Source: Nemertoderma westbladi
Lineage: Eukaryota > Animalia > Xenacoelomorpha
Assembly: GCA_032718475.1 (NCBI GenBank)
Contig: JAUCBJ010000564.1
Span: forward strand, 1-64,000
Reading direction: 5' to 3'
DNA: 64,000 nucleotides
Below are positions 23,271 to 64,000 of this stretch, piece after piece (within the stretch, counting starts at the first letter, position 1; each line of letters opens with the position of its first letter). A program made the position numbers and the translations under genes. Under the pieces are notes generated by a model. The model had not been told where the DNA came from and did no database searches. It saw only the letters and a list, made by a program, of their open reading frames with translations.

Positions 23271-23329
23271 CTATAATAAATAAACACAACATCAGTGAAT
23301 TGGAATGAAAGGAATGAATTATGACTCAA

Positions 23330-27808: not shown

Positions 27809-27914
27809 TGATGAATTATTTCACTATAGAATAGCATTTGTAGTATAACTTAAAAACTTTCGAAAATCCGGCGCATTTTGATTAAGTTACTTTTAAAACC
27901 CCTAGTTACTTTCG

Positions 27915-27996
27915 TGGCGTAGTGGTCAGATGGTTAAGGCGTTGGTTGCATTACGTAGGTTACGAGTTCGAATCTTGGTCGGGAAATTTGTATTTT
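27915..27996 (+). promoter_or_regulatory. tRNA-derived Pol III type-2 promoter-like module in U3; also at ~53418-53500 and ~62647-62728
   Basis: A box TGGCGTAGTGG 27915-27925, B box GTTCGAATC 27966-27974, T-run at 27993-27996. Confidence 0.6.
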
Positions 27997-28023
27997 GGGG
28001 CAATTTATTTTCATTTGGTACAA

Positions 28024-28200
28024 ATTGGTAAGCCAATGAGGTGCGTACAACGCATCGAACGATGAGTTAGGCCAATCATAGGGCAAGGAATATCTTATTG
28101 CTCCAATGTGAGGCCATGGAATACTCCAGAAGGTTCTAGTGAATTCTATGTCCCAGATTTAGTATATAAAGGGCTGGTTTGCCTTCGGTTATCACTTGTA
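28024..28200 (+). promoter_or_regulatory. LTR Pol II promoter: CCAAT cluster, TATA box, Inr-like site
   Basis: CCAAT at 28033, 28072 and 28103; TATATAAA 28163-28170; TCACTT at ~28192. Same layout in the other two LTR copies. Confidence 0.6.
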
Positions 28201-30609
28201 AAACACAATTGTATTTATCAGTTATCACTTCTTGTTGTCATTTCTTAACTAGTTTCTTGTTGAAACTATGTTAAATCTGTTTGATTATTCTTTCGCTAAA
28301 CTGTAAATACACTGTAAACTTCTGAACATGTTTTTCTTTGGTCCAACTTTGGGACAGCCAAACATCGGGAAGATGGCCGCCTAGACCGTTAGGCCGTCAG
28401 CAACGCAGGGAAAGGATGTCCACAACACGCTAGCGCCCACATTAACTTAGACCGCGCACCCCCTTCGCCCTTCAAAATACTCCACATGCCATGCAGCGCC
28501 CGCTTTATGAGGAAGGTAAGACTTTGTTTGACGCCCTTGCCCGCCGTAAGACCTATAGATTAGGGTAAGCGTGACGCCGTCCTGGGACGCCGCAAAATTT
28601 AGGATCAAATAACTATATTTTAGGCAGAAACCCCCTTTGTCAGTCCTGCAAACCCCTGGGTTACCTGTATACCTCACAGGTATTGCGAGCTATTGCCGTT
28701 CGTCAGTACGCAAGTACATATTAGGTACGGACAGCATACGTTCCATAATTTAGTGATTTGTAGTACTGACTGTTTGGTACCGGTTCGCTCTGTAGAGCAT
28801 ACATTAGTACCCCCCCCCCCCCCCCTGCCTGAAGTTGGTTGTTTGATCAGGCAAGGAGTATTTCTGCTACCGGCACACCGCTTGGCCTAGGGAGGTTTTA
28901 TTAATATCCTACCGCGCCTTGCCATGTACTGATAGGTATTGCTGCTAACTACCGCGGCAACAAAGTTCTAGAATCAAATTTGTATACCAGATCAGCTAAC
29001 GTACGGTAGCGATTAACCCCTATTTCTTATCTTACAACCAGAATCTGGTATTTGTGCCGATCACGGGTGTAGTTACTAACACCGTGGTTGCCCAGTTGAG
29101 TTGTGGATAGGAAGGAGAGAGCTTTGACGTCATTTGTAAGTATAAAGTTCTACAAAACGCGACTAGCTTATTTTAGTAGCTAGCGCACGGTATTATTTCG
29201 GTCAGAAAATCACTAAAACCTAGTGAAAAGATATACACCAAAATTGTTTTATTGTAACACACCCACACACACACGCCCTAAAACATATTTACCCTTAGAG
29301 TTCCTACTAGTTATAGCTTACTTTATATTACTTTAGGCAGAATTTATCTGTATTTGTAAATTAGGATCTGATATTTAGTTATGGCAAAAGGGAGTATTTC
29401 ATTTTGTTATTAAACTGTTGTTTTCTGCTCAGCAGTATTGTTACATTAGGCACGACCCTCTTTAGACTGATTAAGGACAGAGATCAGTATTGTTACGCTA
29501 GTCTGTTAATCCACTAGCTCGTATATAAACCATATAAATCACACCGCGGCAAGTTACTGTATTTAGGACTGTCAGCGATAGTTAGGATTCGCTGCGTGGG
29601 GATTGTTTTCCCGTGAGTTTGGTCTGTTACTGTAACTGTACATCTGCCATACCGGTTAGAGGACAGGTATCCTTTTGTCTAGTTCGTAGGCATTAGACCC
29701 GCCCACGTACATAGAATAGACACCAGGCTCTGCTCCTCGCCAGTAGTAGTTTGTGTATTGTATCTGTTTGTTTAGATATCCTGGACTGGGATTTGTTGTC
29801 AGATACTGTACGAGCCCGTTTCATTACTAGAGTCTTACAGTAAGATACATCGTTACTAGGATCTGGTAAGCGGTATACTACTGGACTTTACGGATAGAGA
29901 TATTCTATAGCTTCGTATTAGTTTTTCCAGTACTCCTCTATGGGAGTCCATGCTGGGCTCTAACTGCTGAGGACACCAAATCTCTGGATGGCACATTCAC
30001 AAGAATGCTACGCCGGGTTCATTGTTAGCTTATCCAATTCCGCTAACACGAACCCACAGAGTGAGCCATAAAGCAATATTGGGAGCCTATTGTCAGCCCA
30101 GTAAACGGGGACAATAGGCCCCAAAGGAGACACACACAATAAGGGTCAGGGGTTACTCCCCTGATAAGAGAGAGAACAGCAAGGGCGAAGGGAAGCACTT
30201 CAGAGGGGGGCAAAGGGTGCCAACAGGGGTATTAACCAATCAGAGGGGGGAAAGGCATCGATTGAGTAGCAATAAGGCCACCGTGCAATATAACCAGTTA
30301 CCAGTAATCATACCGGTCAGTTATTCAGTTTACTCAGTCAGATCAGTAGGGTGGAACGGGGACTTCTGTCACCGTCCGCTACCGCCATTATATATTACCT
30401 ATTGTGTCATACTATATTATATCAACTGTCAGACTATTATACCTTTATACATATTACCCAACATCAGAACTCTTTTACCTTTCACACACGGCGGGGACGC
30501 GTGGATAGAAAACCCAAACGGATAAACCGGGATCCGTAGATCCCGTCACAGTGACAGAACTAGATCCGCCCAGCTGCCCTGACAGTGATAGACTGACACC
30601 AAAGGCGAG

Positions 30610-36200: not shown

Positions 36201-37438
36201 TAGGTAGATAGTATGATAGCACAGGGGTAGCATTAGAGATTAAAGCCTTAGGGAGTGACAAGAGAGTGGAGAGGTAATAGTGCGGAGTGCGAAGAGAGCG
36301 TGGGCGCAATTCAAGTGTGGGGGAGGAGAAGTGAGAGGAAGAGTGTGGGACGAGGAGGTCCGGGGGTATGCGAGAGTTGGAGTAGAGTGGTGAGAGTGTT
36401 GGGGAAACAAAAATTGTGTGAGAGAAGCGCACGATCGGCCCGACACGAGACGCCAGAGGGTAGTGACATCATACCCATAGGGAGCGGCCTGGAAAGCCGA
36501 CTCCGAAAAAATATACCCACCCCACACCCGATGCTAGATCGGGATCCAGCGGAATTGTAGCGCACTTGAGTTGGATGCTATCTTCTTACCGGGAAGATAG
36601 CATGGGGGGGAGTGTTAGCTTATCCAATTCCGCTAACACAAACCCATAGAGTGAGCCATAAAGCAATATTGGGAGCCTATTGTCAGCCCAGTAAACGGGG
36701 ACAATAGGCCCCAAAGGAGACACACACAATAAGGGTCAGGGGTTACTCCCCTGACAAGAGAGAGAACAGCAAGGGCGAAGGGAAGCACTTCAGAGGGGGG
36801 CAAAGGGTGCCAACAGGGGTATCAACCAATCAGAGGGGGGAAAGGCATCGATTGAGTAGCAATAAGGCCACCGTGCAATATAACCAGTTACCAGTAATCA
36901 TACCGGTCAGTTATTCAGTTTACTCAGTCAGATCAGTAGGGTGGAACGGGGACTTCTGTCACCGTCCGCTACCGCCATTATATATTACCTATTGTGTCAT
37001 ACTATATTATATCAACTGTCAGACTATTATACCTTTATACATATTACCCAACATCAGAACTCTTTTACCTTTCACACACGGCGGGGACGCGTGGGCAGAA
37101 AACCCAAACGGATAAACCGGGATCCGTAGATCCCGGTTTATCCATTGTGTCAAGTACAATGCACACATCTCCAACCAGACACTATATAACATTGGAGGTG
37201 TCTCATTGGTTCCCCCAAGCTTGACACTAGAACAAAATCGCCTCCGCTTTGCAGGACATTGCTTTCGCCGTGAGGACCAGCCAGTGCATAATCTTGTACT
37301 TTGGCAGCCTCATGGAGTGAATAAGCATGGTGGACAGCCCATGACTTTCTTGAGACGCATCTTAAAGGACACTGGCCTTGAAGATGCGGATGATCTAGCA
37401 AATGTCATGGGTGATAGGGAGTTGTGGCGGTGCAATTT

Positions 37439-38932: not shown

Positions 38933-40941
38933 TTTTGTCGATAAGCCGGCACAGCATTCTTAAAAATGCAGCTGCAATGCAGCATGCCGATCCTAGATTC
39001 GTATTAGTAGATTTGTAGGCTGTAGGGTAGTCCCTACCGTAGAGGGCACATCAGTGAGGTATATATTATACAAATTAGTGTATAGTATTGATCCCAACCG
39101 TGAGGTCTCTCACATACTGTTAGCTATTGTAAGTAGGAGATATTTAAAAATTTAAGGTTAGTAAAATTTAGTAATTTGTAGAACATCCCCTGCTTCAGTA
39201 GGCCTTTAGGGTAGCTAGTAGTTTCGTATTTAATATTTGACTAGCTAATAGTTAGTTTGTAGCATTTGTTTTACGCCGTGTGTGTGCGGTGTTACTTTCG
39301 GTACTTGAAAAGGTACATAGGGTTTAAAGACCAAGTTGTATCGGTACCTAGGAAGATTTTTCGTAGCGTAGAAGTAAAACTCTCACCTTCAACTTTTCAG
39401 GACTCAAGGACTCATTTCTGGACCGCTTCGAGGATTAGACCGCTTTTCGCAATGTTTGGGAGACAAAAAATTCGTCCGTGCTGCCAAAAACGGAACGACC
39501 CACGTCCGGTTTGTATTTGGGAATTTGCACGACTGGAAGATCAAAGGAGCGTAAGTTTTACGACTCGCGTCATTCAAACTTAAGAAAGCACAGTAGTACT
39601 CAAAATTTGTGGGTTTCACTGTCTATTAGTAGTGTTGTTGGTACTTATTTTCCCGTTAGACGTTGCTGTTTTGCCTATTATTTGTACTTGTTGATCTACA
39701 TTTTGGAAACGTATACCGTTATCTCATTTATTCATACAAATTTAGCCGGTAGGCTAGATTATTACTTATTTTATTATATACTTTGTTAGTTTATTTGTAC
39801 CGGTTAGGGTATATATATGATATATATATATATCAAGGTAAGTTTGACATTTGGACATTTCGACATTTTGACATTTCGACATTCTGACTTTGTTGATTTA
39901 TTTGTACCGGTTAGGGTATATATATACTATATACCAAGGTAAGTTTGACATTTCAACATTCAGATACTTTGACATTTTATTACCCGTACTTGACGTATAT
40001 AATAAGACATGAGTGACACACCACATTCGACTCGATACCCCCCTACCGACTATGACTCGTGCGACCCGGACAGATCGACAGTAGACGAACCAAGAAGGAG
40101 AACCCGAGATTCTACCGATGTCACACCACGTGCATCGCCGGTACGTCGCAACATACGCCGCAACGTGTGGCGACGGCAGAATCGAAGATTTTCTTACCGT
40201 CCCGCAGACTAGATCGCGGGAACTGGACATGGTAAGTTCGACTGGAAGCCAGGAGAACGTTATTAGGAGTATAGGAGGACACATGGCCCAGATTACTCGA
40301 AACTTCGGAGAAGGTTTTCGCCTTTTACGCGAGTTAACCGCCCCGATGTTGAGATACGAGTTCTACGCCTTACAGGTAAGGATAGAAAGTAGGGTACATG
40401 CTTCCATAGATAAACTTAAAGGTTTACACGAACTTGCAGAGTTGCGTGGCAACAACTTTTCTCAGGTAAAGATAATCGATAAGTTGGTAAGTGCGAGGGA
40501 AAGCCTCATTCAGTTTAAGTCGGTTGTAGGATCGACTCAGCAAGAAAAACTCTACCAACTGTTAGGTGAGTCAGTTTCAGACGCGTTGTTACAACCCGAA
40601 GAGGAAGAAGAACTATACTGCCTGGATGGGAGGTTAGGGACGCTCACCAATTTTCTTCGTAGATGCAGAGTACCGATCGAAGAACCGAAAGTTGTACCGA
40701 GAGGGACGACGGAAGTTCTATCTACGGAAGGCTCGCGAGCCTACCAAATTCCACCACTGGATAGATCGTTCGTTAGTGTACAGAGCGACGTTGGCGACGT
40801 TGGCGACGTTAGTAGAACAGCGTCTGGAATTACTCGACAACAACAGGAGGTCGCACGCCGACAACAAGTCGTCGAGGAAGAAGCGCAACGGCAGATGGCG
40901 CAGATCGCCATCGAAGGAGAAGGACAGCGCAGAGATATTGT

Positions 40942-43900: not shown

Positions 43901-46125
43901 TTAAAGTTTTCACACATGTCTCTATAATGACTGTTGGCGAACTCACCCCCGTTATCCGACATGAATTTTCCTGGTGAACCAAAGCACCACAGCCACGTCT
44001 TATATAATCCTTTGATAACCTGTTCCTTGTGTTTTGACTGAATCAGACACGCCCCTGAAAATTTTGTCGCCAAATCTATCAAATGCAAAATATATACATT
44101 TGGTCGCAGCACCTTTAAATCCATTGCAACTACCTCATTGAAATCCTGAGCCCTTCTTAACCCAACAACTGGCCTCGGTTTTGGTTTTTTATAACGTTGA
44201 CACACTTCACATGTCGAACATACATTTTCAACACAATCTGAAATCCTTTTTTCCAATATACCTGCATCACTCAACAAGCTTTTAATTTTCACTGCATCTG
44301 CATGGGCAAACTGGCGATGCAGCTTGACAATATCCTTTCCTAGTTCTGACTCACTTTTCTCACTTAGGGCGGTTGCTTTAAAAATCAGATTTGGTTTACT
44401 GTGTGGAACATCTGATATGGCCCGTCTATAGTTATTTAATGGCAAACAATAATGCCCAGCGGGTGAGATATCCAACTGTAATTTTATGCCAAAAACTTCA
44501 ATAGTATTCTCCAAAAATTTAATAATAGCTCCTGTTTTCCTAAGCGATGTATTACTCAACAACAAAGGAATATCTGCATCAACAACATGGCAGTTAATAT
44601 ACACCTTTGTGTGTTTTAGAAATGCTGGAAACCGCACGCACAATAAAGCCGTTATGGGTTTGCCCACCCCAAACTTGAATGGTGTATAGCTCGGCTTAGA
44701 TTCCATTTCATTAATCAAGTCATTGTTAAGTGTCTCTTTATACCTGTCCAGCCAATTTCTGCCACAAACATTTTTTGTACACCCACTGTCAATCACTGCA
44801 CAGGAAAACGTTTCCTTTGTCAGATAACATTCTGATACATCCATATCACCATCTTGATTATCCGAACATCCAAAAAATGAGTAAAAAACATTATCACCAC
44901 TCTCTGTACCTAACCCTCTGTCAGCATCAGCACTACTGGTAAGCCCATCAGCAACATTGGCACAATAAGCCGTACTTCTCTCTGTACAATCAGCTGCATA
45001 ATGCGTTGTACTGTTACAGACAAAACACTGAGTAACATTGCCCCTAAAGTCCATCCGATTTCGCGGATACCTTTGATTACCAGTAGATCCGCCACTGGCT
45101 GCACCCCTATTACTGGCTCCAATCATACTCCTACCTTGACTTTGACCTCTGTATCCACTGTAATATCCCCGTTGAGACCTTCCTCTGTCCCCCGAGTAAC
45201 CCCTATTGTTACCCCTACTATATGGGTACCTGCCTCTACCATAGCTTTGGTAATTAAAGAGTGCCTCTTCACTCCCATCCTCTGTTTTTACTCTTACAGC
45301 TTGTTCATTCTCCACTCGTTCTATCACGCTAAGCCTATCACTATCATTTTTTTGCATCAATGTAACATCAAATATTCTCAGCAATGTATCAGACATACCT
45401 TCATAATTAATCTCTGCGGTAGTAGCCAGTGCCAAATCCCGCTTTTCTGACGTCACATTTGCACTTTTTAGCAAACGGTAGGCTAATACTGGCTCCGGAA
45501 GTACAATCTTGTACTTTTTCATTTTTTCCACTAACCTGTCAAAGTCCACAACAAAATCCTTCATAGATATCTCCCGTTTTCTCACCAAATCTTCAAACTC
45601 CGCATATGTCTGGTAGGCCGCCTGAGAATCCTTTTTTAAATATATCTTATCCAGTTTATCAATGATATTCTGTAATCCCTCTGGCTGCTTCAGTACATCG
45701 ACACCAAGTTTACCTGCCACATCTCTGGGTTTCCCCTGAAGCTCTAAATAAACAGCCATGCCATGCTTCTGTTTCACCAGGTTCGTTAGTTCAGCCCAGA
45801 CCTGAATATCCAACTTCCATCTCTCATAATCATCATTCTCCTTGAACGCTGGTGGCGATTTCCATGACGTTACCGGTGGTGCTGCCATCGCTCTGCTACC
45901 ATGTGAATACAACAATAAGCACTCTTATACTTATATCATAGTATTATAATAGACTATATTATCATGTAGTAATACACAGATACACTGACTGAGCAGACAT
46001 CCTGTCAGTCGTAGTAACACTCACAGTACTGCAGTACCAGTAAGCTTCCTTCCCTACTCCTAGGCCTAAGTCAGTACACTGGTATATATTTAGTTAATCA
46101 GAGTCAGTCATATACAGTAGTAACA
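40942..46125 (-). mobile_element. Ty1/Copia element, GalEa-like, recent
   Basis: 224-bp LTRs 40942-41165 and 45902-46125, one mismatch seen. PBS TGGTAGCAGAG (initiator tRNA-Met) at 45901-45891. PPT AGGGGGAGAT at 41175-41166. Confidence 0.95.
41348..45888 (-). CDS. Copia gag-pol polyprotein (Zn knuckle, protease, integrase, RT, RNase H) with one frameshift in RNase H
   Basis: ATG at 45888 just after the PBS; CFVCNSTTHYAADC, IDSGC, H..H..C..C, VAMDL, SDNGGEF, NGVVER, KARLCARGFEE, YGLGDAPRMW, HVDD, FTDAS. Frame changes at STLAAE (~41690) into ORF 41348-41668. Confidence 0.93.
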
Positions 46126-47269
46126 AGTTCGACTGGAAGCCAGGAGAACGTTATTAGGAGTATAGGAGGACACATGGCCCAGATTACTCGAAACTTCGGA
46201 GAAGGTTTTCGCCTTTTACGCGAGTTAACCGCCCCGATGTCGAGATACGAGTTCTACGCCTTACAGGTAAGGATAGAAAGTAGGGTACATGCTTCCATAG
46301 ATAAACTTAAAGGTTTACACGAACTTGCAGAGTTGCGTGGCAACAACTTTTCTCAGGTAAAGATAATCGATAAGTTGGTAAGTGCGAGGGAAAGCCTCAT
46401 TCAGTTTAAGTCGGTTGTAGGATCGACTCAGCAAGAAAAACTCGACCAACTGTTAGGTGAGTCAGTTTCGGACGCGTTGTTACAACCCGAAGAGGAAGAA
46501 GAACTATACTGCCTGGACGGGAGGTTAGGGACGCTCACCAATTTTCTTCGTAGATGCAGAGTACCGATCGAAGAACCGAAAGTTGTACCGAGAGGGACGA
46601 CGGAAGTTCTATCTACGGAAGGCTCGCGAGCCTACCAAATTCCACCACTGGATAGATCGTTCGTTAGTGTACAGAGCGACGTTGGCGACGTTAGTAGAAC
46701 AGCGTCTGGAATTACTCGACAACAACAGGAGGTCGCACGCCGACAACAAGTCGTCGAGGAAGAAGCGCAACGGCAGATGGCGCAGATCGCCATCTGGAGA
46801 AAGGAGAAAGACAGCGCAGAGAGGATGTAGCGAAACTTGCGAAACTTCAAGCGCAGGCTGAGTTCGAAGCATCAGAGATGCGGAGACTGGAGGAGGACTT
46901 AGCGCGAGAAGCGGCCGTGGCGGCAGCAGCCGACGAGTTAGCACGACAGGCGGCAGCTGACGAGCTAGCACGACAGGCAGCGGCGGCAGCAGCCAACGAG
47001 CTAGCATGACAGGCAGCGGCTGACGAGCTAGCACGAGTTGCGGCGGTAAACGCAGCTGAGTTAGCACGGAAGAAAGCAGCATCCGACGCTCGTGCCAAGT
47101 TCGAGGTGCGACAAATAAACGCTCGTTTAGCTATACAGGAAGCGGAGTTAGCGGTACAACAAAAGGAAGCAGATCAACGCGAAATGGAGATGCAGCTCCA
47201 GTTCGAACTAAATCGCAGATCGCGCGAGGCGGCGAACGCGCAAGAGGACTGTACGCGCTTTTGAAGACC

Positions 47270-48400: not shown

Positions 48401-49343
48401 ACTGATTATACCCGCAAAAGCTTTTACAAGGACCTCGAACTCGACGCGAGAGATAGATCTATAAGGTCTCGAGCTGGACACGACTTGTCTGCCCTGGATC
48501 GCATGGAGACTCGATATCGCGGAATTCAGAAGCGAATCGAGGAAGGAAGTGTGGGAGCGATAGACCGAGGAGAAGAGTTCGTCGAGGATTACTGTAAACG
48601 TTTTCCCCAAGTTATTCCTATGCTCAAACCCACGACTCTAGTAAAACCGGTTATGGTTGCAAAACCGAAGGAAATATCACCCGTGCAAGGTAATAGGTTT
48701 GTTATGTTGGAATCAATTCCGCAGCCACGAGCGACTTCATCGCCGATTCTCGCAGGTAAGATAAGTAGTCCACCTACTGTAAGCCGTAGTTTACTTGTAG
48801 AGAGAGACGAACCTGCGTTTATGACAGTAAAACAGGTGAGTAAACCATTACAAGTTAAACCTGTGATGTGCTGCGCGAACCCAGTCATTTATAAACCTAC
48901 AGTAGAACTTAACTCCGATGTTTTTACTAGACCTCTCACCCAATGTTTATCGAGAGCTACGACTTCGTGGAAGGCTTGCGAGCCTGCCGAACAACGGAGA
49001 GCCGTAGATCCCAGACCACAACGAACTCGACCAAGAATAATACCATACCTAGACAACCAACACCATACCAGAAGGTGCCGAGATAAAAATCGACAAGGTT
49101 GTCAAGTCCAAAGCGAAAGCCAACGCCAAGGTCAAGAGGAAACAAGGACGGACGAAATCTGATGACCTGGACGCCAGACCTGACATTACGCCAGACGTCT
49201 CACCAGACACTCGACCAGATGCTTGTACGAATCTTTCACCGGATGTTCCGCGGGAGATTTCACCAGACGTTTCGCCGGATTGTTCACCAGATTACTCGCC
49301 AGACTATTCACTAGAAGCGACACCAGATTGTTCTCCGGATTGT

Positions 49344-51473
49344 TTGCCAGATTGTTTGATGGAACTCTCGACAGAATGTCTACCGGACGTCTCACCAGAC
49401 TTTCCACCAGACATCTCGACAGATTGTCCACCAGACTTTGGACCAGACTTTAGACCAGACTTTGGACCAGACTTTCTGACAGAAGTTACGCCAGACAGAC
49501 ATTGGGACCGACGACAAGACATTTCGCTGGATGTTCCGCGCTATGTCTCACCAGACGTCTCTCCAGACTGTTCACCAGACGCTTCACCAGACTGTCTACT
49601 AGACACTCCACTAGAAGACCCATTGGAGCGGACTATTAGAAACTTACCGAATTTGACTTCTTTGAACGACAAAGGTGTGGCCACAGCGATCACACTCCGC
49701 TCGAAGAAGGTACTTGACTTACCACCTACAGGTAAACGTGTGACTAAGGTTAGGAAGCTTACAGGCTCACAGGAACACACTGGTACTGTAGAGTTGAAAC
49801 CGTTACTGCCAGTCGACACACTAGGAGCAGACGGTAAAGGTAAGACCATAGAGATTGACATACTTGGGGACTCAGACAAACCTACCGGAAGGCCCGTGGG
49901 CCTACCAAGTCTAGACAAGTATCCACAATACGACTATACCTTACCTGATGACGTCACTAACACTTACGTTGACCGGATAGTTAACCTAACTAGATCATGG
50001 AGTGACGCGTGCCGCAAGTTAGCATGGCTCAAACGTTTGAGACAATATGCCAGAGGCAAACGCGACTTTCCTAGAAGACTTACCTTAAAGGAAGTTGGTC
50101 ATTGTGAAGTTGATATCATTCGCCATTATCAATTGCGATATTTCGCACAAAAGTTCACAGCGATCAACCAAGGTAAACAGATTAAGTCTTCACCGATTTT
50201 GAGTTGGAGTCCGATTATTTACCGGGGCTTACTTTGTCACAAGTCCAGACTCCAAAACATCGACTTTGCACTAGACTTTAGGTATCCTATCATCATACCG
50301 CAACACCATGAATTACAGCGCACTATGATACTGGACGCACATGTACAACTCAAACACGTGGGTAGACACCACTGTCTATCACACTTACGCTCGAGGTTTG
50401 TACTGATTAGACCTAGTAAGGCACTGAGTTCGGTAACACGGAACTGTATGATTTGTAAGAAGGTGCACGCGAGGATAGGACACCAAGAAATGAGTAAACT
50501 ACCACTAGCGAGATTACAGGCATTTAGACCCCCTTTCACTGAGACAGGGATAGACTGCTTTGGACCCATAATCGCGAAACGCGGAAGGGTACAGGTAAAA
50601 CGTTGGGGATTGATCTTCACTTGCATGGCCAGCAGAGCTGTCCATATAGAGCGTGTGACAGATTTGACTACCAATGCCTTTATCCTAGCCTTACGGCGAT
50701 TTATCGCTAGACGTGGATTGGTCAAATCCATTTACTGCGACCAAGGGACAAACTTTGTGGGTGCACGGAACGAAATAACCAGAGCTTTGAGAAAGTTGGA
50801 CCAAAACCAGATTTCCGAGGAACTACGTCCTCACCGTATTGTTTGGTATTTTAATACTCCAGACAGTCCGTGGAGAGGCGGCGTTTGGGAAAGGCTGATT
50901 GGCTCAATTAAAACAGCTATGGCTAAAGTAGTACCGACGCAACACATTTTGACAGACGACCAACTGACGACGTTACTAATAGAAATCGAAGCGATTTTGA
51001 ACACTAGACCGATCGCTTTGATCCCAGACAATAACGACGCACAGTTTGCCTTGACACCAGTGCACCTGCTTATGCAGGCGCCGACGACATTGTTGCCCGT
51101 TTCGGTACCCGTTGATAGCGATGGATACGGCAACAAAGCTTGGAAAATCACTCAATTGCTTGCAAATAAATTCTGGGAAATATGGCAGAAATATTATTTG
51201 CCCTCTATTTCAACCAGAACCTCTTGGTATCTTAATACCCGATGTTTGAGACGCGGTGACCACGTTTTATTGGCTGAAGCCAATCTGAAAAGACGGTTTT
51301 GGCTGACTGGAGTCATTTTGACCACGCACCCTACATCTGGTGTAGTGAGAACAGTTACCGTAAGGACTATCAACGGTCGTACCGTAGACAGATCTGTACA
51401 ACGTCTCGTGCTCCTTGAGGAGACTAGAAATGAGACAGGAGACTACAAATCTCCACCCAATATTAGTAAATAG
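49344..51473 (+). CDS. BEL/Pao integrase ORF (HHCC, DDE core, C-terminal domain) preceded by Pro-Asp repeats
   Basis: AHVQLKHVG...CMICKK; PPFTETGIDCFGP; FTCMASRAVHIE; CDQGTNF; PWRGGVWERLIGSIK; EAILNTRP; FWEIWQKYYL. The N-terminal PDCSPD repeat comes from CCAGAC tandems at ~49170-49610. Confidence 0.92.
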   Translation: MPDCLMELSTECLPDVSPDFPPDISTDCPPDFGPDFRPDFGPDFLTEVTPDRHWDRRQDISLDVPRYVSPDVSPDCSPDASPDCLLDTPLEDPLERTIRNLPNLTSLNDKGVATAITLRSKKVLDLPPTGKRVTKVRKLTGSQEHTGTVELKPLLPVDTLGADGKGKTIEIDILGDSDKPTGRPVGLPSLDKYPQYDYTLPDDVTNTYVDRIVNLTRSWSDACRKLAWLKRLRQYARGKRDFPRRLTLKEVGHCEVDIIRHYQLRYFAQKFTAINQGKQIKSSPILSWSPIIYRGLLCHKSRLQNIDFALDFRYPIIIPQHHELQRTMILDAHVQLKHVGRHHCLSHLRSRFVLIRPSKALSSVTRNCMICKKVHARIGHQEMSKLPLARLQAFRPPFTETGIDCFGPIIAKRGRVQVKRWGLIFTCMASRAVHIERVTDLTTNAFILALRRFIARRGLVKSIYCDQGTNFVGARNEITRALRKLDQNQISEELRPHRIVWYFNTPDSPWRGGVWERLIGSIKTAMAKVVPTQHILTDDQLTTLLIEIEAILNTRPIALIPDNNDAQFALTPVHLLMQAPTTLLPVSVPVDSDGYGNKAWKITQLLANKFWEIWQKYYLPSISTRTSWYLNTRCLRRGDHVLLAEANLKRRFWLTGVILTTHPTSGVVRTVTVRTINGRTVDRSVQRLVLLEETRNETGDYKSPPNISK

Positions 51474-53281: not shown

Positions 53282-55472
53282 TGATGAATTATTTCACTAT
53301 AGAATAGCATTTGTAGTATAACGTAAAAACTTTCGAAAATCCGGCGCATTTTGATTAAGTTACAGTAATGTAATATGCCTATTCATATTTGTATACATAA
53401 AACCCCTAATTACTCTCGTGGTGTAGTGGTCAGATGGTTAAGGCGTTGGTTGCATTACGTAGGTTACGAGTTCGAATCTTGGTCGGGAAATTTGTATTTT
53501 GGGGCAATTTATTTTCATTTGGTACAAATTGGTAAGCCAATGAGGTGCGTACAACGTATCGAACGATGAGTTAGGCCAATCATAGGGCATGGAATATCTT
53601 ATTGCTCCAATGTGAGGCCATGGAATACTCCAGAAGGTTCTAGTGAATTCTGTCCCAGATTTAGTATATAAAGGGCTGGTTTGCCTTCGGTTATCACTTG
53701 TAAAACACAATTGTATTTATCAGTTATCACTTCTTGTTGTCATTTCTTAACTAGTTTCTTGTTGAAACTGTGTTAAATCTGTTTGATTATTCTTTCGCTA
53801 AACTGTAAATACACTGTAAACTTCTGAACATGTTTTTCTTTGGTCCAACTTTGGGACAGCCAAACACCGGGAAGATGGCCGCCTAGACCGTTAGGCCGTC
53901 AGCAACGCAGGGAAAGGATGTCCACAACACGCTAGCGCCCACATTAACTTAGACCGCGCACCCCCTTCGCCCTTCGAAATACTCCACATGCCATGCAGCG
54001 CCCGCTTTATGAGGAAGGTAAGACTTTGTTTGACGCCCTTGCCCGCCGTAAGACCTATAGATCAGGGTAAGCGTGACGCCGTCCTGGGACGCCGCAAAAT
54101 TTAGGATCAAATAACTATATTTAGGCAGAACCCCTTTGTCAGTCCTGCAAACCCCTGGGTTACCTGTATACCTCACAGGTATTGCGAGCTATTGCCGTTC
54201 GTCAGTACGCAAGTACATATTAGGTACGGACAGCATACGTTCCATAATTTAGTGATTTGTAGTACTGACTGTTTGGTACCGGTTCGCTCTGTAGAGCATA
54301 CATTAGTACCCCCCCCCCCCCCCTGCCTGAAGTTGGTTATTTGATCAGGCAAGGAGTATTTCTGCTACTGGCACACCGCTTGGCCTAGGGAGGTTTTATT
54401 AATATCCTACCGCGCCTTGCCACGTACTGATAGGTATTGCTGCTAACTACCGCGGCAACAAAGTTCTAGAATCAAATTTGTATACCAGATCAGCTAACGT
54501 ACGGTAGCAATTAATCCCTATTTCTTATCTTACAACCAGAATCTGGTATTTGTGCCGATCACGGGTGTAGTTACTAACACCGTGGTTGCCCAGTTGAGTT
54601 GTGGATAGGAAGGAGAGAGCTTTGACATCATTTGTAAGTATAAAGTTCTACAAAACGCGACTAGCTTATTTTAGTAGCTAGCGCACGGTATTATTTCGGT
54701 CAGAAAATCACTAAAACCTAGTGAAAAGGTATACACCAAAATTGTTTTATTGTAACACACCCACACACACACGCCCTAAAACATATTTACCCTTAGAGTT
54801 CCTACTAGTTATAGCGTACTTTAGATCATTTTAGGCAAGTATATTTATCGTACTTTCGGTATTTGTAAAATTAGGATCAGATATTTAGTTACGGCATGAG
54901 AAGGAGTATTTCATTTTCGTTATTAAACTGTTGTTTTCTGCTCAGCAGTATTGTTACATTAGGCACGACCCCCTTTAGACTGATTAAGGACTGAGATCAG
55001 TATTGTAACGCTAGGTCTGTAACCCACTTAGCTCGTATATAAACCATATAAATCACACCGCGGCAAGTTACTGTATTTAGGACTGTCAGTGATAGTTAGG
55101 ATTCGCTGCGCGGGGATTGTTTTCCCGTGAGTTTGGTCTGTTACTGTAACTGTACATCTGCCATACCGGTTAGAGGACAGGTATCCTTTTGTCTAGTTCG
55201 TAGGCATTAGACCCGCCCACGTACATAGAATAGACACCAGGCTCTGCTCCTCGCCAGTAGTAGTTTGTCTGTTTGTTTAGATATCCTGGACTGGGATTTG
55301 TTGTCAGATACTGTACGAGCCCGTTTCATTACTAGAGTCTTACAGTAAGATACATCGTTACTAGGATCTGGTAAGCGGTATACTACTGGACTTTACGGAT
55401 AGAGATATTCTATAGCTTCGTATTAGTAGATTTGTAGGCTGTAGGGTAGTCCCTACCGTAGAGGGCACATCA
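53282..55472 (+). repeat. Intact 3' LTR of element 1 (2191 bp)
   Basis: TGATGAATTATTTCAC...GAGGGCACATCA, followed by the TSD ACGAG and satellite. Confidence 0.95.
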
Positions 55473-58400
55473 ACGAGTTGTACAGACAACGAGTTGTACA
55501 GACACGAGTTGTACAGACACGAATTGTAAGGAAACAAGTTGTACAGGCACAAGTTGTACAGACACGACTAGTGCAGACACGAGTTTTACAGATACGAGAA
55601 CAAACACGAGTTGTACAGACACGAGTTGTACAGACACGAGTTGTACAGATACGAGTTGTACAGACACGAATTGTACAGATACAAGTTGTACAGACACGAG
55701 TTGTACAGATACGAGTTGTACAGACATGAGTTGTGCAGAGACGAGTTGTACAGACACGAATTGTACAAACACAAGTTGTACAGGCACAAGTTGTACAGAC
55801 ACGAGTAGTGCAGACACTAGTTGTACAGACACGAGTATTGCAGACACTAGTTGTAGAGACACGAGTTGTACAGACACGAGTTGTTCAGACACGCGTTGCA
55901 CAGACACGAGTTATACAGACACGAGTTGTACAGACACGAGAAGTGCAGACACGAGTTGTACAGATACGAGAACAAACACGAGTTGTACAGACACGAGTTG
56001 TACAGACACGAGTTGTACAGATACGAGTTGTACAGACAACGAGTTGTACAGACAACGAGTTATACAAACACGAGTTGTACAGACACGAATTGTACAACAC
56101 GAGTTGTACAGACACGAATTGTACAGACACAAGTTGTACAGACACGAGTTGTACAAATACGAGTTGTACAGACACGAGTTGTGCAGACACGAGTTGTACA
56201 GACACGAATTGTACAGACACAAGTTGTACAGGCACAAGTTGTACAGACACGAGTAGTGCAGACACTAGTTGTACAGACACGAGTATTGCAGACACTAGTT
56301 GTAGAGACACGAGTTGTACAGACACGAGTTGTTCAGACACGCGTTGTATAGACACGCGTTGTATAGACACGAGTTATACAGACACGAGTTGTACAGACAC
56401 GAGTTGTACAGACACGAGTTGTATAGACACGAGTTGTACAGACACGAGTAGTGCTGACAATAGTTGTAAAGACACGAGTTGTACAAACACGAGTAGTGCA
56501 GACAATAGTTGTACAGACATGAGTAGTGCTGACAATAGTTGTAAAGACACGAGTTGTACAGACACGAGTTGTACAGACACGAGTTGTACAGACACGAGTT
56601 GTACAGACACGAGTAGTGCAGATAAAAGTTGTAAAGACACGAGTTGTACAGACACGAGTTGTGCAGACACGAGTTGTATAGACAAGAGTTGTAGAGACAC
56701 GAGTTGAAAAGAAACGAGTAGTGCTGACAATAGTTGTAAAGACACGAGTTGTACAGACACGAGTAGTGCAGACAATAGTTGTACAGACACGAGTTGTACA
56801 GACACGAGTAGTGCAGATAAAAGTTGTAAAGACACGAGTTGTACAGACACGAGTTGTGCAGACACGAGTGTACAGAAACGACTAGTGCAGACACAAGTTG
56901 TAGAGACACGAGTTGTATAGGCACGAGTTGTACAGACACGAGTTGTCCGGACACAAGTTGTACAGACACAAGTTGTACAAACACGAGTTGTACAGACACG
57001 AGTTGTACAGACACGAGTTGAGCAGACACGAGTTGTACAGCAACGAGTTGTACAGACACGAGTTGTAGAGACACGAGTTGTACAGACACGAGTTGTACAG
57101 ACACGAGTTGTACAGACACGAGTTGTACAGACACGAATTGTACAGACACAAGTTGTACAGGCACAAGTTGTACAGACACGAGTTGTACAGACACGAGTTG
57201 TACAGATACGAAAACAAACACGAGTTGTACAGACACGAGTTGTACAGACACGAGTGGTACAGATACGAGAACAAACACGAGTTGTACAGACACGAGTTGT
57301 ACAGATACGAGAACAAACACGAGTTGTACAGATACGAGAACAAACACGAGTTGTACAGACACGAGTTGTCCGGACACAAGTTGTACAGACACAAGTTGTA
57401 CAGATACGAGTACAAACACGAGTTGAACAGACACGAGTTGTACAGACACGAGTTGTACAGATACGAGTTGTACAGACAACGAGTTGTACAGACACGAGTT
57501 GTACAGACACGAATTGTACAAACACGAGTTGTACAGACACGAGTTGTACAGACACGAGTTGTACAGACACGAGTTGTACAGATACGAGTACAAACACGAG
57601 TTGTACAGACACAAGTTGTACAGACACGAGTTGTACAGATACGAGTTGTACAAACACGAGTTGTACAGACACAAGTTGTAGAGACACCAGTTGTACAGAC
57701 ACGAGTTGTACAGACACGAGTTGTACAGACACGAGTTGTACAAACACGAGTTGTACAGATACGAGAACAAACACGAGTTGTACAGACACGAGTTGTACAG
57801 ATACGAGAACAAACACGAGTTGTACAGACACGAGTTGTACAGATACGAGAACAAACACGAGTTGTACAGACACGAGTTGTACAGATACGAGAACAAACAC
57901 GAGTTGTACAGACACGAGTGGTCCGGACACAAGTTGTACAGACACAAGTTGTACAGATACGAGTACAAACACGCGTTGAACAGACACGAGTTGTACAGAC
58001 ACGAGTTGTATAGATACGAGTTGTACAGACATGAGTTGTGCAGACACGAGTTGTACAGACACGAATTGTACAGACACAAGATGTACAGGCACAAGTTGTA
58101 CAGACACGAGTAGTGCAGACACGAGTTGTACAGATACGAGTTGTACAGACAACGAGTTGTACAGACACGAGTTGTACAGACACGAATTGTACAGACACAA
58201 GTTGTACAGGCACAAGTTGTACAGACACGAGTTGTACAGACACGAGTTGTACAGATACGAGAACAAACACGAGTTGTACAGACACGAGTTGTACAGACAC
58301 GAGTTGTACAGATACGAGAACAAACACGAGTTGTACAGACACGAGTTGTCCGGACACAAGTTGTACAGACACAAGTTGTACAGACACGAGTTGTACAGAT

Positions 58401-61400
58401 ACGAGAACAAACACGAGTTGTACAGACACAAGTTGTACAGATACGAGTACAAACACGAGTTGAACAGACACGAGTTGTACAGACACGAGTTGTACAGATA
58501 CGAGTTGTACAGACAACGAGTTGTACAGACACGAATTGTACAGACACAAGTTGTACAGAGACGAGTTGTACAGATACGAGTTGTACAGACACGAGTAGTG
58601 CAGACACTAGTTGTAGAGACATGAGTTGTACAGACACGAGTTGAGCAGACACGAGTTGTACAGACACGAGTTGTTCAGACACGCGTTGCACAGACACGAG
58701 TTATACAGACACGAGTTGTACAGACACGAGTAGTGCAGACACGAGTTGTACAGATACGAGAACAAACACGAGTTGTACAGAAAACGAGTTGTACAGACAC
58801 AAGTTGTACGGGCACACTAGTTGTACAGACGCGAGTTGTACAGACAAGAGTTTTACAGACGAGTTGTGCAGACACGAGTTGTACAAACACGAGTTGTACA
58901 GACACGAGTTGTACAAACACGAGTTGTACAGACACGAATTTTACAGAAACAAGTTATACAGACACGAGTTGTACAGACGAGTTGTGCAGACACGAGTTGT
59001 AGAGACACGAGTTGCACAGACACGAGTTGTACAGACACGAGTAGTGCAGACAATAGTTGTAGAGACACGAGTTGTAGAGACACGAGTTGCACAGACACGA
59101 GTAGTGCAGACAATAGTTGTACAGACACGAGTTGTACAGACACGAGTAGTGCAGACAATAGTTGTAAAGACACGAGTTGTACAGACACGAGTTGAGCAGA
59201 CACGAGTTGTACAGACACGAGTTGTACAAACACGAGTTGTAGAAACACGAGTTGTACAGACTAGTTGTACAAACACGAGTTGTACAGACGAGTTGTGCAG
59301 ACACGAGTTGTGCAGACACGAGTTGTACAGACACGAGTTGTACAGACACGAGTTGTAGAGACACGAGTTGTACAGACACGAGTTGTACAGACACGAGTTG
59401 TACAAACACGAGTTGTACAAACACGAGTTGAAAAGACACGAGTTGTACAGACACGAGTTGAGCAGACACGAGTTGTACAGCAACGAGTTGTACAGACACG
59501 AGTTGTAGAGACACGAGTTGTACAGACACGAGTTGTACAGACACGAGTTGTACAGACACGAGTTGTACAGACACAAATTGTACAGACACAAGTTGTACAG
59601 GCACAAGTTGTACAGACACGAGTTGTACAGACACGAGTTGTACAGATACGAAAACAAACACGAGTTGTACAGACACGAGTTGTACAGATATGAGTTGTAC
59701 AAACACGAGTTGTACAGACACAAGTTGTAGAGACACCAGTTGTACAGACACGAGTTGTACAGACACGAGTTGTACAGACACGAGTTGTACAGATACGAGA
59801 ACAAACACGAGTTGTACAGACACGAGTTGTACAGATACGAGAACAAACACGAGTTGTACAGACACGAGTTGTACAGATACGAGAACAAACACGAATTGTA
59901 CAGACACGAGTTGTACAGATACGAGAACAAACACGAGTTGTACAGACACGAGTGGTCTGGACACAAGTTGTACAGACACAAGTTGTACAGATACGAGTAC
60001 AAACACGAGTTGAACAGACACGAGTTGTACAGACACGAGTTGTATAGATACGAGTTGTACAGACATGAGTTGTGCAGACACGAGTTGTACAGACACGAAT
60101 TGTACAGACACAAGATGTACAGGCACAAGTTGTACAGACACGAGTAGTGCAGACACGAGTTGTACAGATACGAGTTGTACAGACAACGAGTTGTACAGAC
60201 ACGAGTTGTACAGACACGAATTGTACAGACACAAGTTGTACAGGCACAAGTTGTACAGACACGAGTTGTACAGACACGAGTTGTACAGATACGAGAACAA
60301 ACACGAGTTGTACAGACACGAGTTGTACAGACACCAGTTGTACAGATACGAGAACAAACACGAGTTGTACAGACACGAGTTGTCCGGACACAAGTTGTAC
60401 AGACACAAGTTGTACAGACACGAGTTGTACAGATACGAGAACAAACACGAGTTGTACAGACACGAGTTGTCCGGACACAAGTTGTACAGACACAAGTTGT
60501 ACAGATACGAGTACAAACACGAGTTGAACAGACACGAGTTGTACAGACACGAGTTGTACAGATACGAGTTGTACAGACAACGAGTTGTACAGACACGAAT
60601 TGTACAGACACAAGTTGTACAGAGACGAGTTGTACAGATACGAGTTGTACAGACACGAGTAGTGCAGACACTAGTTGTAGAGACATGAGTTGTACAGACA
60701 CGAGTTGAGCAGACACGAGTTGTACAGACACGAGTTGTTCAGACACGCGTTGCACAGACACGAGTTATACAGACACGAGTTGTATAGACACGAGTAGTGC
60801 AGACACGAGTTGTACAGATACGAGAACAAACACGAGTTGTACAGAAAACGAGTTGTACAGACACAAGTTGTACAGGCACAAGTTGTACAGACACGAGTAG
60901 TGCAGACACTAGTTGTACAGACACGAGTATTGCAGACACTAGTTGTAGAGACACGAGTTGTACAGACACGAGTAGTGCAGACACTAGTTGTACAGACACG
61001 AGTATTGCAGACACTAGTTGTAGAGACACGAGTTGTACAGACACGAGTTGTTCAGACACGCGTTGCACAGATACGAGTTATACAGACACGAGTTGTACAG
61101 ACACGAGTAGTGCAGACACGAGTTGTACAGATACGAGAACAAACACGAGTTGTACAGACACGAGTTGTACAGATACGAGTTGTACAGACAACGAGTTGTA
61201 CAGACACGAGTTGTACAGACACGAGTTGTACAGACACGAATTGTACAGACACAAGTTGTACAGGCACAAGTTGTACAGACACGAGTAGTGCAGACACGAG
61301 TTGTACAGATACGAGTTATACAAACACGAGTTGTACAGACACGAATTGTACAAACACGAGTTGTACAGACACGAATTGTACAGACACAAGTTGTACAGAC

Positions 61401-62503
61401 ACGAGTTGTACAGATACGTGTTGTACAGACACGAGTTGTGCAGACACGAGTTGTACAGACACGAATTGTACAGACACAAGTTGTACAGGCACAAGTTGTA
61501 CAGACACGAGTAGTGCAGACACTAGTTGTACAGACACGAGTATTGCAGACACTAGTTGTAGAGACACGAGTTGTACAGACACGAGTTGTTCAGACACGCG
61601 TTGTACAGACACGAGTTATACAGACACGAGTTGTACAGACACGAGTTGTACAGACACGAGTTGTAGAGACAAGAGTTGTACAGACACGAGTAGTGCTGAC
61701 AATAGTTGTAAAGACACGAGTTGTACAAACACGAGTAGTGCAGACAATAGTTGTACAGACACGAGTTGTACAGACACGAGTAGTGCAGACAATAGTTGTA
61801 AAGACACGAGTTGTACAGACACGAGTTGTACAGACACGAGTTGAGCAGACACGAGTTGTACAGACACGAGTTGTACAGACACGAGTTGTACAGACACGAG
61901 TTATACAAACACGAGTTGTACAGACACGAATTGTACAAACACGAGTTGTACAGACACGAATTGTACAGACACAAGTTGTACAGACACGAATTGTACAGAC
62001 ACGCGTTGAACAGACACGAGTTATACTGACACGAGTTGTACAGACGAGAGTTGTAGAGACAAGAGTTGTACAGATACGAGTAGTGCTGACAATAGTTGTA
62101 AAGACACGAGTTGTACAGACACGAGTAGTGCAGACAATAGTTGTACAGACACGAGTTGTACAGACACGAGTAGTGCAGATAAAAGTTGTAAAGACACGAG
62201 TTGTACAGACACGAGTTGTGCAGACACGAGTTGTACAGAAACGAGTAGTGCAGACACGAGTTGTAGAGACACGAGTTGTACAGAGACGAGTTGTACAGAC
62301 ACGAGTTGTGCAGACACGAGTTGTACAGTCACGATTTGTACAAACACGAGTAGTGCAGACATGAGTTGTACAGACACGAGTTATACAAACACGAGTTGTA
62401 CAGACACAAGTTATACAGACACGAGTTGTAGAGACACGAGTTGTACAGACACGAGGAGTGCTTACAATAGTTGTAAAGACACGAGTTGTACAGACACGAG
62501 TTG
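55473..62503. repeat. 15-bp satellite, right array, about 470 units with higher-order blocks
   Basis: Same monomer and orientation as 23330-27808. A variant pattern around 57000-58800 recurs around 59450-60860. Confidence 0.98.
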
Positions 62504-64000
62504 TGATGAATTATTTCACTATAAGGTAGCATTTGTAGTTTAACTTTAACGTAAAAACTTTTGAAAATCCGACGTATTTTGATTAAATTACAGTAATGTA
62601 ATATGCCTATTCATATTTGTACACATAAAACCCTTAGGTACTCTCGTGGCGTAGTGGTCAGATGGTTAAGGCGTTGGTTACATTACGTAGGTTACGAGTT
62701 CGAATCCCAGTCGGGAAATTTGTATTTTGGGGCCATTTATTTTCGTGTGGTGCTAATTGGTAGGCCAATGAGAAGCGTACAGCGTAGCGAATAATGAGCC
62801 AGGCCAATCATAGGGCATAAATTATCTTATTGCTCAAATGTGAGGCAGTGGAAAATTCTGTTAGGATTCCATGTCCCAGATTAGTGTAAGGGCTGGACTG
62901 CGTTGAACGATGAGCTGGGCCAATCATAGGGCACGACGCACTTCATTGCTCAATGGTGAAGCTGTGGAAAATTCTGTTTAGTTTCCATGTGCAATTTCTA
63001 GTATAAAAAGGGCCGTTTTGCCTTCGGTTATCACCTTCCGTTATAATTTCTTATAACGTTACTCTATCACTTTATTCTTGTAAAATTAGTTAATTCGGTT
63101 TCTTGTTGAAACTTACTTTGATAAATCCTTTGTTAAAACTGTAAATATACTGCAATTTCCTGACATGTTTTCTTTTGGTCCGACTTCGGGACAGCCGAAC
63201 ACCAGGGAGATGTCAGCCTAGACCGTTAGGCCGTAAGCAACGCAGGGAAGGGATGTCCACAACACGCTAGCGCCCACATTTGGATTGACCGCGCACCCCC
63301 TTTGCCCTTCGAAATGCTCAACTTGCCATGCAGCGCCCGCTTTGTGAGAAAGGTAAGACTTTGTTCGACGCCCTTGCCCGCCGTAAGACCTATAGATCAG
63401 GGTAAGCGTGACACCGTACTGGACGCCGCAAATTTAGGATCAAATAATTATATCCAGACACCCCCCCTTTGTCAAGTCCTACGAATCCCTGGGTTAACCT
63501 GTACTTCCTGCAGGTGCGAACTATTGCCATTCGTCAGTACGCGAGTACACATTAGGTACGGACAGCATACGTTCCATAATTTAGTGATTCATAGCACTGA
63601 CTGTTTGGTACCGGTTCGCTTTGTAGAACGTACATTAGTACCCCCCCCCCCCTCCTGTCTGGAGTTAGCTATTTGATCAGGCAAGGAGTATTTCTGCTAC
63701 CGGCACACTGCTTGGCCTAGGGAGGTTTTATTAATATCCTACCGCGCCTTGCCACGTACTGATAGGTATTGCTGCTAACTACCGCAGCAACAAAGTTCTA
63801 GAATTAAATTAGTATACCAGATCAGCTAACGTACGGTAGCGATTAACCCCTATTCTTATCTTACAACCAGAATCTGGTATTAGTGCCGATCACGGGTGTA
63901 GTTACTAACACTGTGGTTGCCCATTGGGTTGTGGATAGGAAGGAGAGAGCTTTGACGTCATTCGTGAGTATAAAGTTCTACAAACGCGACTAGTTTATTT
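62504..64000 (+). mobile_element. LTR of a diverged sister subfamily of element 1, running off the window
   Basis: Starts TGATGAATTATTTCACTATA after satellite GAGTTG; colinear with 53282-54670 but with more substitutions and an extra CCAAT module at ~62895-62990. Confidence 0.92.

What the first reader, a model, noticed from the sequence alone, without database searches (positions are those of the whole stretch)
63490..63520. Sister LTR keeps the stem but swaps the loop, predicting its PBS sequence
Seen: element 1 LTRs read ACCTGTA-TACCTCA-CAGGT; the homologous site in the 62504 LTR reads ACCTGTA-CTTCCTG-CAGGT. Six of seven central bases differ while the stem is kept and the rest of the LTR is far more similar. 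Inference: the loop co-varies with the PBS as a subfamily-specific pairing code. This LTR should end near window position 64,800 and, if it is a 5' LTR, be followed by G(C/T)AGGAAGTA instead of GTGAGGTATA.
Basis: partly seen in the sequence, partly recalled or inferred. Interest (0 to 1): 0.8.

Follow-up and report, generated by a model that had tools for sequence, protein, structure and literature searches.

The report
Shifted self-primer in BEL/Pao retrotransposon
An animal jumping gene has ten letters inside its terminal repeat that exactly match the spot where its DNA copying likely starts, so it likely primes with its own RNA instead of a host tRNA; the sister repeat's altered version is predicted to pair with the same spot in a shifted position, so the proposed matching swap of that spot remains unshown.

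Summary
The LTR starting at 62504 has ACCTGTACTTCCTGCAGGT where both LTRs of BEL/Pao element 1 have ACCTGTATACCTCACAGGT. Element 1's TATACCTCAC is the exact complement of the ten bases after its 5' LTR (22 of 5000 shuffles), and no TGG-type tRNA site is present. A second element in the window, and 4 of 13 outside BEL/Pao elements with defined LTR ends, also pair their post-LTR bases with their own LTR, using different letters. Self-priming is therefore likely, which departs from the ICTV description of the family.

The predicted swap to G(C/T)AGGAAGTA was neither found nor excluded. No genome was held. The 45 contigs laid on the LTR end showed no substituted primer site, but that test cannot see divergent junctions. 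The '6 of 7' difference shrinks to four events in a gapped alignment. The sister loop can still pair with the unchanged site in a 2-base-shifted register (11 bp, one bulge); 87 of 7290 equally divergent loops do as well. Odds: same site, shifted register 0.45; co-swapped site 0.3; splice acceptor or other primer 0.25.

The parts
62504..64000 (+). Sister LTR (LTR3), first 1497 bases. It begins TGATG directly after satellite with no polypurine tract, so it is a 5' or solo LTR.
63497..63515 (+). Hairpin ACCTGTA-CTTCC-TGCAGGT, the site of the finding
63500..63510 (+). TGTACTTCCTG, predicted to pair with the unchanged LTR end plus primer site (39052-39063) as 11 bp with one bulge, -10.7 to -11.4 kcal/mol
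63353..63513 (+). Candidate intron: consensus donors at 63353 (AAG|GTAAGA) and 63402 (AGG|GTAAGC), acceptor CTTCCTGCAG|GT ending at 63513. The same sites are present in element 1.
   Evidence: splicing not shown
27809..29922 (+). Element 1 5' LTR, first part (left target duplication ACGAG at 27804-27808)
38998..39053 (+). Element 1 5' LTR, last part, after a ~9-kb nested insertion flanked by an 11-base duplication
28668..28677 (+). TATACCTCAC, candidate self-primer in the 5' LTR
39054..39063 (+). GTGAGGTATA, primer-binding site position directly after the 5' LTR; no TGG start
49053..51473 (+). ORF with BEL/Pao-type integrase region (DUF5641, Integrase_H2C2). Seven long ORFs of related elements matched only 49935-51470 or nothing, so protease and RT were not found.
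53282..55472 (+). Element 1 3' LTR, 2191 bases, TGATG...CATCA, right target duplication ACGAG; TATA at 53665, primer copy 54167-54176, ATTAAA at 54922
30364..30372 (+). TTCTGTCAC in the 5' LTR of the nested element (30023-37135), complement of its post-LTR bases
30551..30559 (+). GTGACAGAA after the nested element's presumed LTR end (TCACA); the end is inferred because the 3' copy is altered there
55473..62503 (.). 15-bp satellite into which element 1 and LTR3 are inserted (also 23198-27808)

Best explanation
Element 1 is a defective BEL/Pao retrotransposon whose LTR holds the exact ten-base complement of the bases after its 5' LTR, so it likely primes reverse transcription with its own RNA, and the sister LTR's altered site is predicted to pair with the same, likely unchanged, primer site in a register shifted by two bases. 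Shown: the complement, the absence of a TGG site, and the same design in other families. Inferred steps: (1) transcription starts about 30 bases after the TATA box; (2) the hairpin at LTR position ~886 opens and pairs with GUGAGGUAUA; (3) a cut after ...CAC, probably by a helper element's RNase H as in Tf1, frees the 3'-OH; (4) about 1.3 kb of minus-strand DNA is copied. In the sister subfamily UGUACUUC would pair with GAGGUAUA (8 bp, two G-U) and CUG would clamp onto the LTR-end CAG. That duplex is weaker but needs no new primer site.
For: Exact 10-mer complement at offset 0: 22 of 5000 dinucleotide shuffles. The duplex is -18.8 kcal/mol against -11.4 for the next-best site in the same LTR. 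The nested element has a 9-mer complement with other letters, 3 of 2000 shuffles. Of 13 outside BEL/Pao loci with both LTR ends defined, 4 pair 11-14 post-LTR bases with a canonical splice junction of their own LTR (0, 0, 1 and 6 of 300 shuffles). Eight have a TGG tRNA-type site (3 of the 8 were run in the junction test, with no junction found) and 1 has neither. The sister loop against the unchanged site gives 11 bp and -11.4 kcal/mol. It is the best LTR3 site in 2 of 3 target windows, and 87 of 7290 loops with 6 or more differences pair as well. In one search the only substitution listed at 2% or more is at 39046, with none at 39054-39063. The junction contigs have depth 750 (X1) and 664 (X2) against 1386 for the X1 LTR-end contig. 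By my sum over the shown X1 records about 54% of such LTR ends run into GTGAGGTATA, which leaves little room for a second site on the same end. One X1 contig with a different LTR end is also followed by GTGAGGTATA. A pair of related elements at about 70% identity keeps the same junction letters (L129 and L131).
Against: No full-length copy with the CTTCCTG loop was read. The shifted duplex is barely above other LTR3 sites (-11.4 against -11.2 and -11.1) and ranks third in the longest target window. Its 8-bp core is only -6.4 kcal/mol. In element 1, the nested element and the six outside candidates, the pairing runs through ...AC against GT; the shifted register would not. cannot see contigs that share only the last 30 LTR bases: element 1 has a private base at 39046, and only 1 of the 24 X1 contigs laid is shown running from the exact LTR end into unrelated sequence. 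A subfamily with its own LTR end or leader would therefore be missed. The primer lies about 500 bases downstream of the TATA box, not at the presumed RNA 5' end. Element 1's integrase sits on a long unresolved branch and does not group with the splice-junction families.
Confidence: 0.45

Rival explanations
1. One reading: the loop and the primer site changed together, and CTTCCTG copies carry G(C/T)AGGAAGTA. A route exists. Plus-strand synthesis copies the primer still attached to the minus strand, so a primer change can be written into the primer site (retroviral principle, recalled; not tested here).
For: Pairing letters differ between families and each family matches itself. The densest ungapped divergence falls exactly on the primer. 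The LTR3 type is present in an independent sample: X4 record 27 has LTR3's length (243) and gap count (9) and 23 against 22 mismatches, at depth 39 of about 146. It is therefore probably a replicated subfamily that needs a working primer. A perfect 10-bp match would be -15.2 kcal/mol. One X1 loose end (before 39091) contains ten letters agreeing with the prediction at 9 places.
Against: No contig shows the predicted site after an LTR end: 45 were laid, 18 listed, and 14 of 18 loose ends shown. The 9-of-10 stretch is not preceded by LTR-end letters. It sits where element 1 has the 3' arm of its leader hairpin and can itself close a hairpin (by eye). The change is 4 events with gaps, and the shifted register keeps pairing with the old site.
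Confidence: 0.3
2. The site is mainly a 3' splice acceptor (pyrimidine tract plus CAG|GT) of a leader intron. The sister's change only alters the pyrimidine tract, and the sister lineage is primed in trans by another subfamily's RNA or from a site in the unseen last 800 bases.
For: Both versions end in a pyrimidine run plus CAG|GT, 110-160 bases below two consensus donors that are conserved in all three LTRs. Related BEL/Pao LTRs carry canonical intron signals.
Against: The acceptor scores no better than many others (10 of 15 pyrimidines; 16 such sites in the 3' LTR). Splicing alone does not explain the exact 10-mer complement. No splice junction inside these LTRs produces a primer: best 7 bases, reached by 210-239 of 300 shuffles.
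Confidence: 0.15
3. A host RNA such as a half-tRNA cut in the anticodon loop primes at GTGAGG..., and the internal complement only forms a regulatory fold.
For: Half-tRNA priming is described for some Ty1/copia lineages (PMC6317226, passages). ICTV describes belpaovirids as tRNA-primed (PMC8742986, whole text).
Against: There is no TGG start. The post-LTR letters differ between families and match each element's own LTR, which one host primer would not produce. The host's tRNA set could not be tested.
Confidence: 0.1

Closest known systems
Tf1/Tf2, Tj1 and the Tf1/sushi group (Ty3/gypsy chromoviruses); passages of PMC4600332, PMC5341516 and bioRxiv 10.1101/2022.12.06.519325 read
   Same: A short LTR-derived sequence is complementary to the bases right after the 5' LTR and replaces a tRNA primer; flanking helices add to the duplex.
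   Different: BEL/Pao superfamily, no chromodomain found. The primer lies about 500 bases below the TATA box and 1.3 kb above the LTR end, not at the presumed RNA 5' end. It sits in a hairpin and abuts an AG|GT splice-like site.
Belpaoviridae (BEL/Pao); ICTV profile PMC8742986, whole text read
   Same: TG...CA LTRs, 5-base target duplication, DUF5641-bearing integrase 33-42% identical to animal BEL/Pao proteins.
   Different: The profile gives an 18-nt site for tRNA-Arg or tRNA-Gly and LTRs of 0.2-1.2 kb. Here there is no TGG site and the LTR is 2.19 kb; protease and RT were not found.
Plant Tcn1 and TAR (Houba, Osr-1) lineages with predicted self-primers; PMC6317226, passages read
   Same: Element 1 meets that paper's working rule: at least 10 complementary bases in the 5' LTR for a site starting 0-5 bases after it.
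   Different: Those are plant gypsy and copia lineages. LTR3 with the unchanged site would not meet the rule, and the nested element reaches only 9.
Splice-junction self-primer BEL/Pao elements (loci L130, L136, L137, L141, probably L123 and L129; also unreviewed scan notes e1-7811049 and e1-7882409)
   Same: Same superfamily; post-LTR site begins GT (after a 2-base spacer in L130) and pairs with the element's own LTR RNA.
   Different: There the primer exists only after an intron is removed. Here it is contiguous, and the candidate intron would remove it rather than build it.

Membership tests
BEL/Pao (Belpaoviridae) | Integrase and C-terminal domain of BEL/Pao type | tested here: met
   DUF5641 E 1e-17; best hits carry PF05380 or PF18701
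BEL/Pao (Belpaoviridae) | Paired TG...CA LTRs with short target duplication | tested here: met
   TGATG...CATCA, ACGAG on both sides, though within a satellite that makes the match easy; LTR pair differs at 34 of 2097 columns
BEL/Pao (Belpaoviridae) | Gag-PR-RT-RH-IN order | tested here: inconclusive
   Only the RH-end/integrase part matched; PR and RT were not found, so this is a non-autonomous copy
BEL/Pao (Belpaoviridae) | 18-nt site complementary to a tRNA 3' end (ICTV profile) | tested here: not met
   Post-LTR bases are GTGAGGTATA with no TGG. By protein it is a BEL/Pao derivative that departs from the profile on priming, as do 5 of 13 outside loci.
Tf1/sushi self-primers | LTR sequence complementary to the primer site | tested here: met
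   10 of 10 in element 1; in LTR3 only a shifted, bulged match to element 1's site
Tf1/sushi self-primers | Primer at the very 5' end of the RNA | tested here: inconclusive
   The primer is 502 bases below the best TATA box; no start-site data
Tf1/sushi self-primers | Ty3/gypsy chromovirus pol with chromodomain | tested here: not met
   BEL/Pao integrase, no chromodomain hit. It works like Tf1 at most and is not a member.
Tf1/sushi self-primers | RNase H-dependent cleavage that frees the primer | not testable with these tools
   Needs RNA end mapping
Splice-junction self-primer BEL/Pao | Primer spans a canonical splice junction in the LTR | tested here: not met
   Best junction 7 bases in element 1 and in LTR3, reached by 239 and 210 of 300 shuffles

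The most novel reading that the evidence does not exclude
Sister subfamilies of one BEL/Pao family, about 91% identical, carry different RNA self-primers and matching primer sites as a private pairing code, switched as a block because the primer templates its own binding site. The primer is released far inside the leader by the spliceosome, as the tail of the excised intron ending ...CAG, rather than by a cut near the RNA 5' end.
Probability: 0.12. Interest if true: 0.85.

Novelty: new variant of a known kind. Interest (0 to 1): 0.5.

Why it matters
The ICTV profile describes BEL/Pao elements as tRNA-primed. My seven searches of the open library listed no paper whose title or abstract start reports self-priming in them; subscription papers and supplements were not searched. 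Two elements in this window and at least four from other sources show the self-priming signature, in two forms (contiguous and splice-built). If the sister subfamily keeps the old primer site with a shifted duplex, it shows how much slack such a primer tolerates. If it swapped the site, it gives a natural compensatory pair that proves the pairing without any experiment. About 1 kb more of the assembly may decide which, unless this copy is a solo LTR.

Tried and rejected
No whole genome is held, so the bases after 64,000 could not be read. No RNA holder was listed; run X6 laid 0 contigs on 39010-39120, which is not evidence either way. The metagenome scan used too short a pattern: 120 loci, none similar to the LTR by blastn. 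Longer LTR patterns found nothing in viral contigs or genome contigs, and integrase queries found no relative in viral contigs. One search cut its tables (319 letter rows and 685 loose ends not shown), so loop variants were not listed directly. A splice-junction primer in element 1, LTR3 or the nested element was rejected. No ribozyme or tRNA family was found in the LTR by Rfam or ARAGORN. The integrase tree did not place element 1 (33 rows, 4 of 36 loci without a long enough match left out). The blind junction scan is noisy: shuffled targets hit in up to 12 of 40, and there were stray hits in L131, L138 and L156. L123 and L129 are therefore counted only as probable. In one search, 31 of 36 loci were examined (five short ones left out) and 18 lacked two defined LTR ends. 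Two X4 contigs (depth 95 and 26) run from an LTR-like end into sequence matching neither site; I could not assign them to a subfamily. Levin 1995 (PMC230564) was not held and is known to me only through citing papers.

Full report
Observation. The motif occurs at 28663, 54162 and 63497, at homologous positions of three LTR copies. Element 1 has a 5' LTR at 27809-29922 plus 38998-39053, split by a 9-kb nested insertion, and a 3' LTR at 53282-55472. Its ends are TGATG...CATCA and the target duplication is ACGAG. The two LTRs differ at 34 of 2097 columns. The third LTR starts at 62504 directly after satellite and runs off the window; a co-linear end would be near 64,804. Over 63140-63995 it differs from element 1 at 75 of 854 columns, and the loop is the densest ungapped 7-base window (6 of 7), with a 5-of-7 patch elsewhere. 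With gaps the loop difference is four events.

What the element is. The ORF at 49053-51473 carries DUF5641 and an integrase zinc finger and is 33-42% identical to animal BEL/Pao proteins. Seven long ORFs from related elements matched only its RH-end/integrase part or nothing, so element 1 is non-autonomous. The ICTV profile (PMC8742986, whole text) gives an 18-nt tRNA site for this family. Element 1 has GTGAGGTATA with no TGG, whereas a Copia element in the same window has the normal tRNA-Met site.

The self-priming signature. TATACCTCAC at LTR position 886-895 is the exact complement of the ten bases after the LTR, reached by 22 of 5000 shuffles. The duplex is -18.8 kcal/mol against -11.4 for the next site. 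A nested element in the window has TTCTGTCAC in its LTR and GTGACAGAA after it (3 of 2000 shuffles); its LTR end is inferred. A scan of genome contigs returned 36 BEL/Pao loci. Of 31 examined, 13 had both LTR ends defined: eight begin with a TGG tRNA-type site, one (L149) has neither signature, and four (L130, L136, L137, L141) pair 11-14 bases with a canonical splice junction of their own LTR (0-6 of 300 shuffles). Two more (L123, L129) are probable. I looked for this after reading unreviewed notes of the scan; the test on these loci is my own. Self-priming by an LTR-derived RNA is known from Tf1/sushi and predicted for plant Tcn1 and TAR (passages). Seven library searches listed nothing on BEL/Pao self-priming by title or abstract start. 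Between families, then, primer and primer site do vary together.

Testing the prediction for the sister LTR. No genome was held. Contigs of public runs were laid on the 3' LTR and on the LTR end plus primer site. At six listed sites where both element 1 LTRs agree and LTR3 differs, most depth carries LTR3's letter; at two others the majority letter is neither LTR3's nor element 1's, and at one it differs from all three copies. X4 record 27 spans the loop with LTR3's length and gap count (243 bases, 9 gaps, 23 against 22 mismatches) at depth 39 of about 146. So the LTR3 type exists in an independent sample and is probably multi-copy. At the LTR end, 45 contigs were laid. The only substitution listed at 2% or more is at 39046, with none in 39054-39063. 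The GTGAGGTATA junction has depth 750 in X1 and 664 in X2, against 1386 for the X1 LTR-end contig. My sum over the shown X1 records (8 of 24) gives about 54%, near the ceiling for elements with two LTRs. One X1 contig with a different LTR end also continues with GTGAGGTATA. Against this, the test is blind to contigs that share only the last 30 LTR bases, so a subfamily with its own end or leader would be missed. One loose end agrees with the predicted site at 9 of 10 letters, but it is not preceded by an LTR end and occupies the place of the leader hairpin's 3' arm. Two X4 contigs continue into sequence that matches neither site. The prediction is therefore neither confirmed nor refuted.

An alternative that needs no swap. 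Folding LTR3's site against element 1's unchanged LTR end and primer site gives UGUACUUC with GAGGUAUA and CUG with CAG: 11 pairs, one bulge, -11.4 kcal/mol. In this register the core TACCTC/TACTTC differs by one change that keeps a G-U pair. Of 7290 seven-base loops with six or more differences from element 1, 87 pair as well; of all 16384, 413 do. The site is the best in LTR3 for two of three target windows, but by only 0.2-0.7 kcal/mol, and third in the longest. The conserved 'stem' bases also pair with the LTR end and leader, which explains their conservation under either reading. Weak points are the low energy and the departure from the ...AC/GT pairing seen in the other eight elements.

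Splicing. The site also reads as a 3' acceptor below two consensus donors conserved in all three LTRs. Splicing there would remove the primer rather than build it. It may separate translated from packaged RNA, or the intron tail may itself supply the primer after two bases are trimmed. Both are untested.

Verdict. Self-priming of the family is likely (about 0.75). For copies with the CTTCCTG loop I put the unchanged site with a shifted register at 0.45 and the co-swapped site at 0.3; the splice-acceptor and host-primer readings share the rest. It works like Tf1 but is not a member of that group. It is a new variant of a known mechanism, already noted without review elsewhere in this scan. Interest 0.5. 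Supplements of the cited papers were not read and may list BEL/Pao primer sites that bear on the novelty claim.

Noticed in passing
window 30023-37135: A second non-autonomous LTR element (about 527-base LTRs, 6 mismatches) is nested in a LINE fragment inside element 1's 5' LTR. It has a gag-like ORF with Cys/His knuckles resembling BEL/Pao (pattern recalled; no Pfam hit). Its post-LTR GTGACAGAA pairs with its own LTR. The end of the 3' LTR is replaced by a perfect fold-back palindrome.
   Followed up: partly
L130, L136, L137, L141, L123, L129: BEL/Pao elements on contigs filed under bacterial MAGs (probably host contamination) have 11-14 post-LTR bases complementary to a canonical splice junction in their own LTR; introns are 76-1022 bases.
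   Followed up: yes
window 62642-62716 (also 27906-27985, 53414-53490): A tRNA-like stretch with box A-like and box B-like motifs (by eye) in the upstream part of the LTR; not called by ARAGORN or Rfam. It recalls Helenus TRIMs (PMC10886601, abstract and outline read).
   Followed up: partly
window 63175-63200 vs 53839-53865: A paired change in a small hairpin: CCG-ACTT-CGG in LTR3 against CCA-ACTT-TGG in element 1, suggesting conserved RNA structure in the leader.
   Followed up: no
window 40942-46126 (minus strand): A GalEa-like Copia element nested in element 1's gag region, with the ordinary TGGTAGCAGAGC tRNA-Met site (same site in PMC3587641, passages read). About 700 bases of element 1 are duplicated on both sides of it (40234-40935 and 46125-46822).
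   Followed up: partly
window 23198-27808 and 55473-62503: Both copies of the LTR family are inserted in the same 15-bp satellite at different phases, a possible targeting preference.
   Followed up: no
window 39063-39113: The leader after the primer site has a hairpin (39063-39088) and a second GTGAGGT at 39100. Contig depth falls from about 1590 to 310 over 50 bases in X1, so the leader is variable among copies.
   Followed up: partly
window 19383-22196: A non-LTR retrotransposon ORF with an Ulp1-type protease domain upstream of the RT.
   Followed up: no
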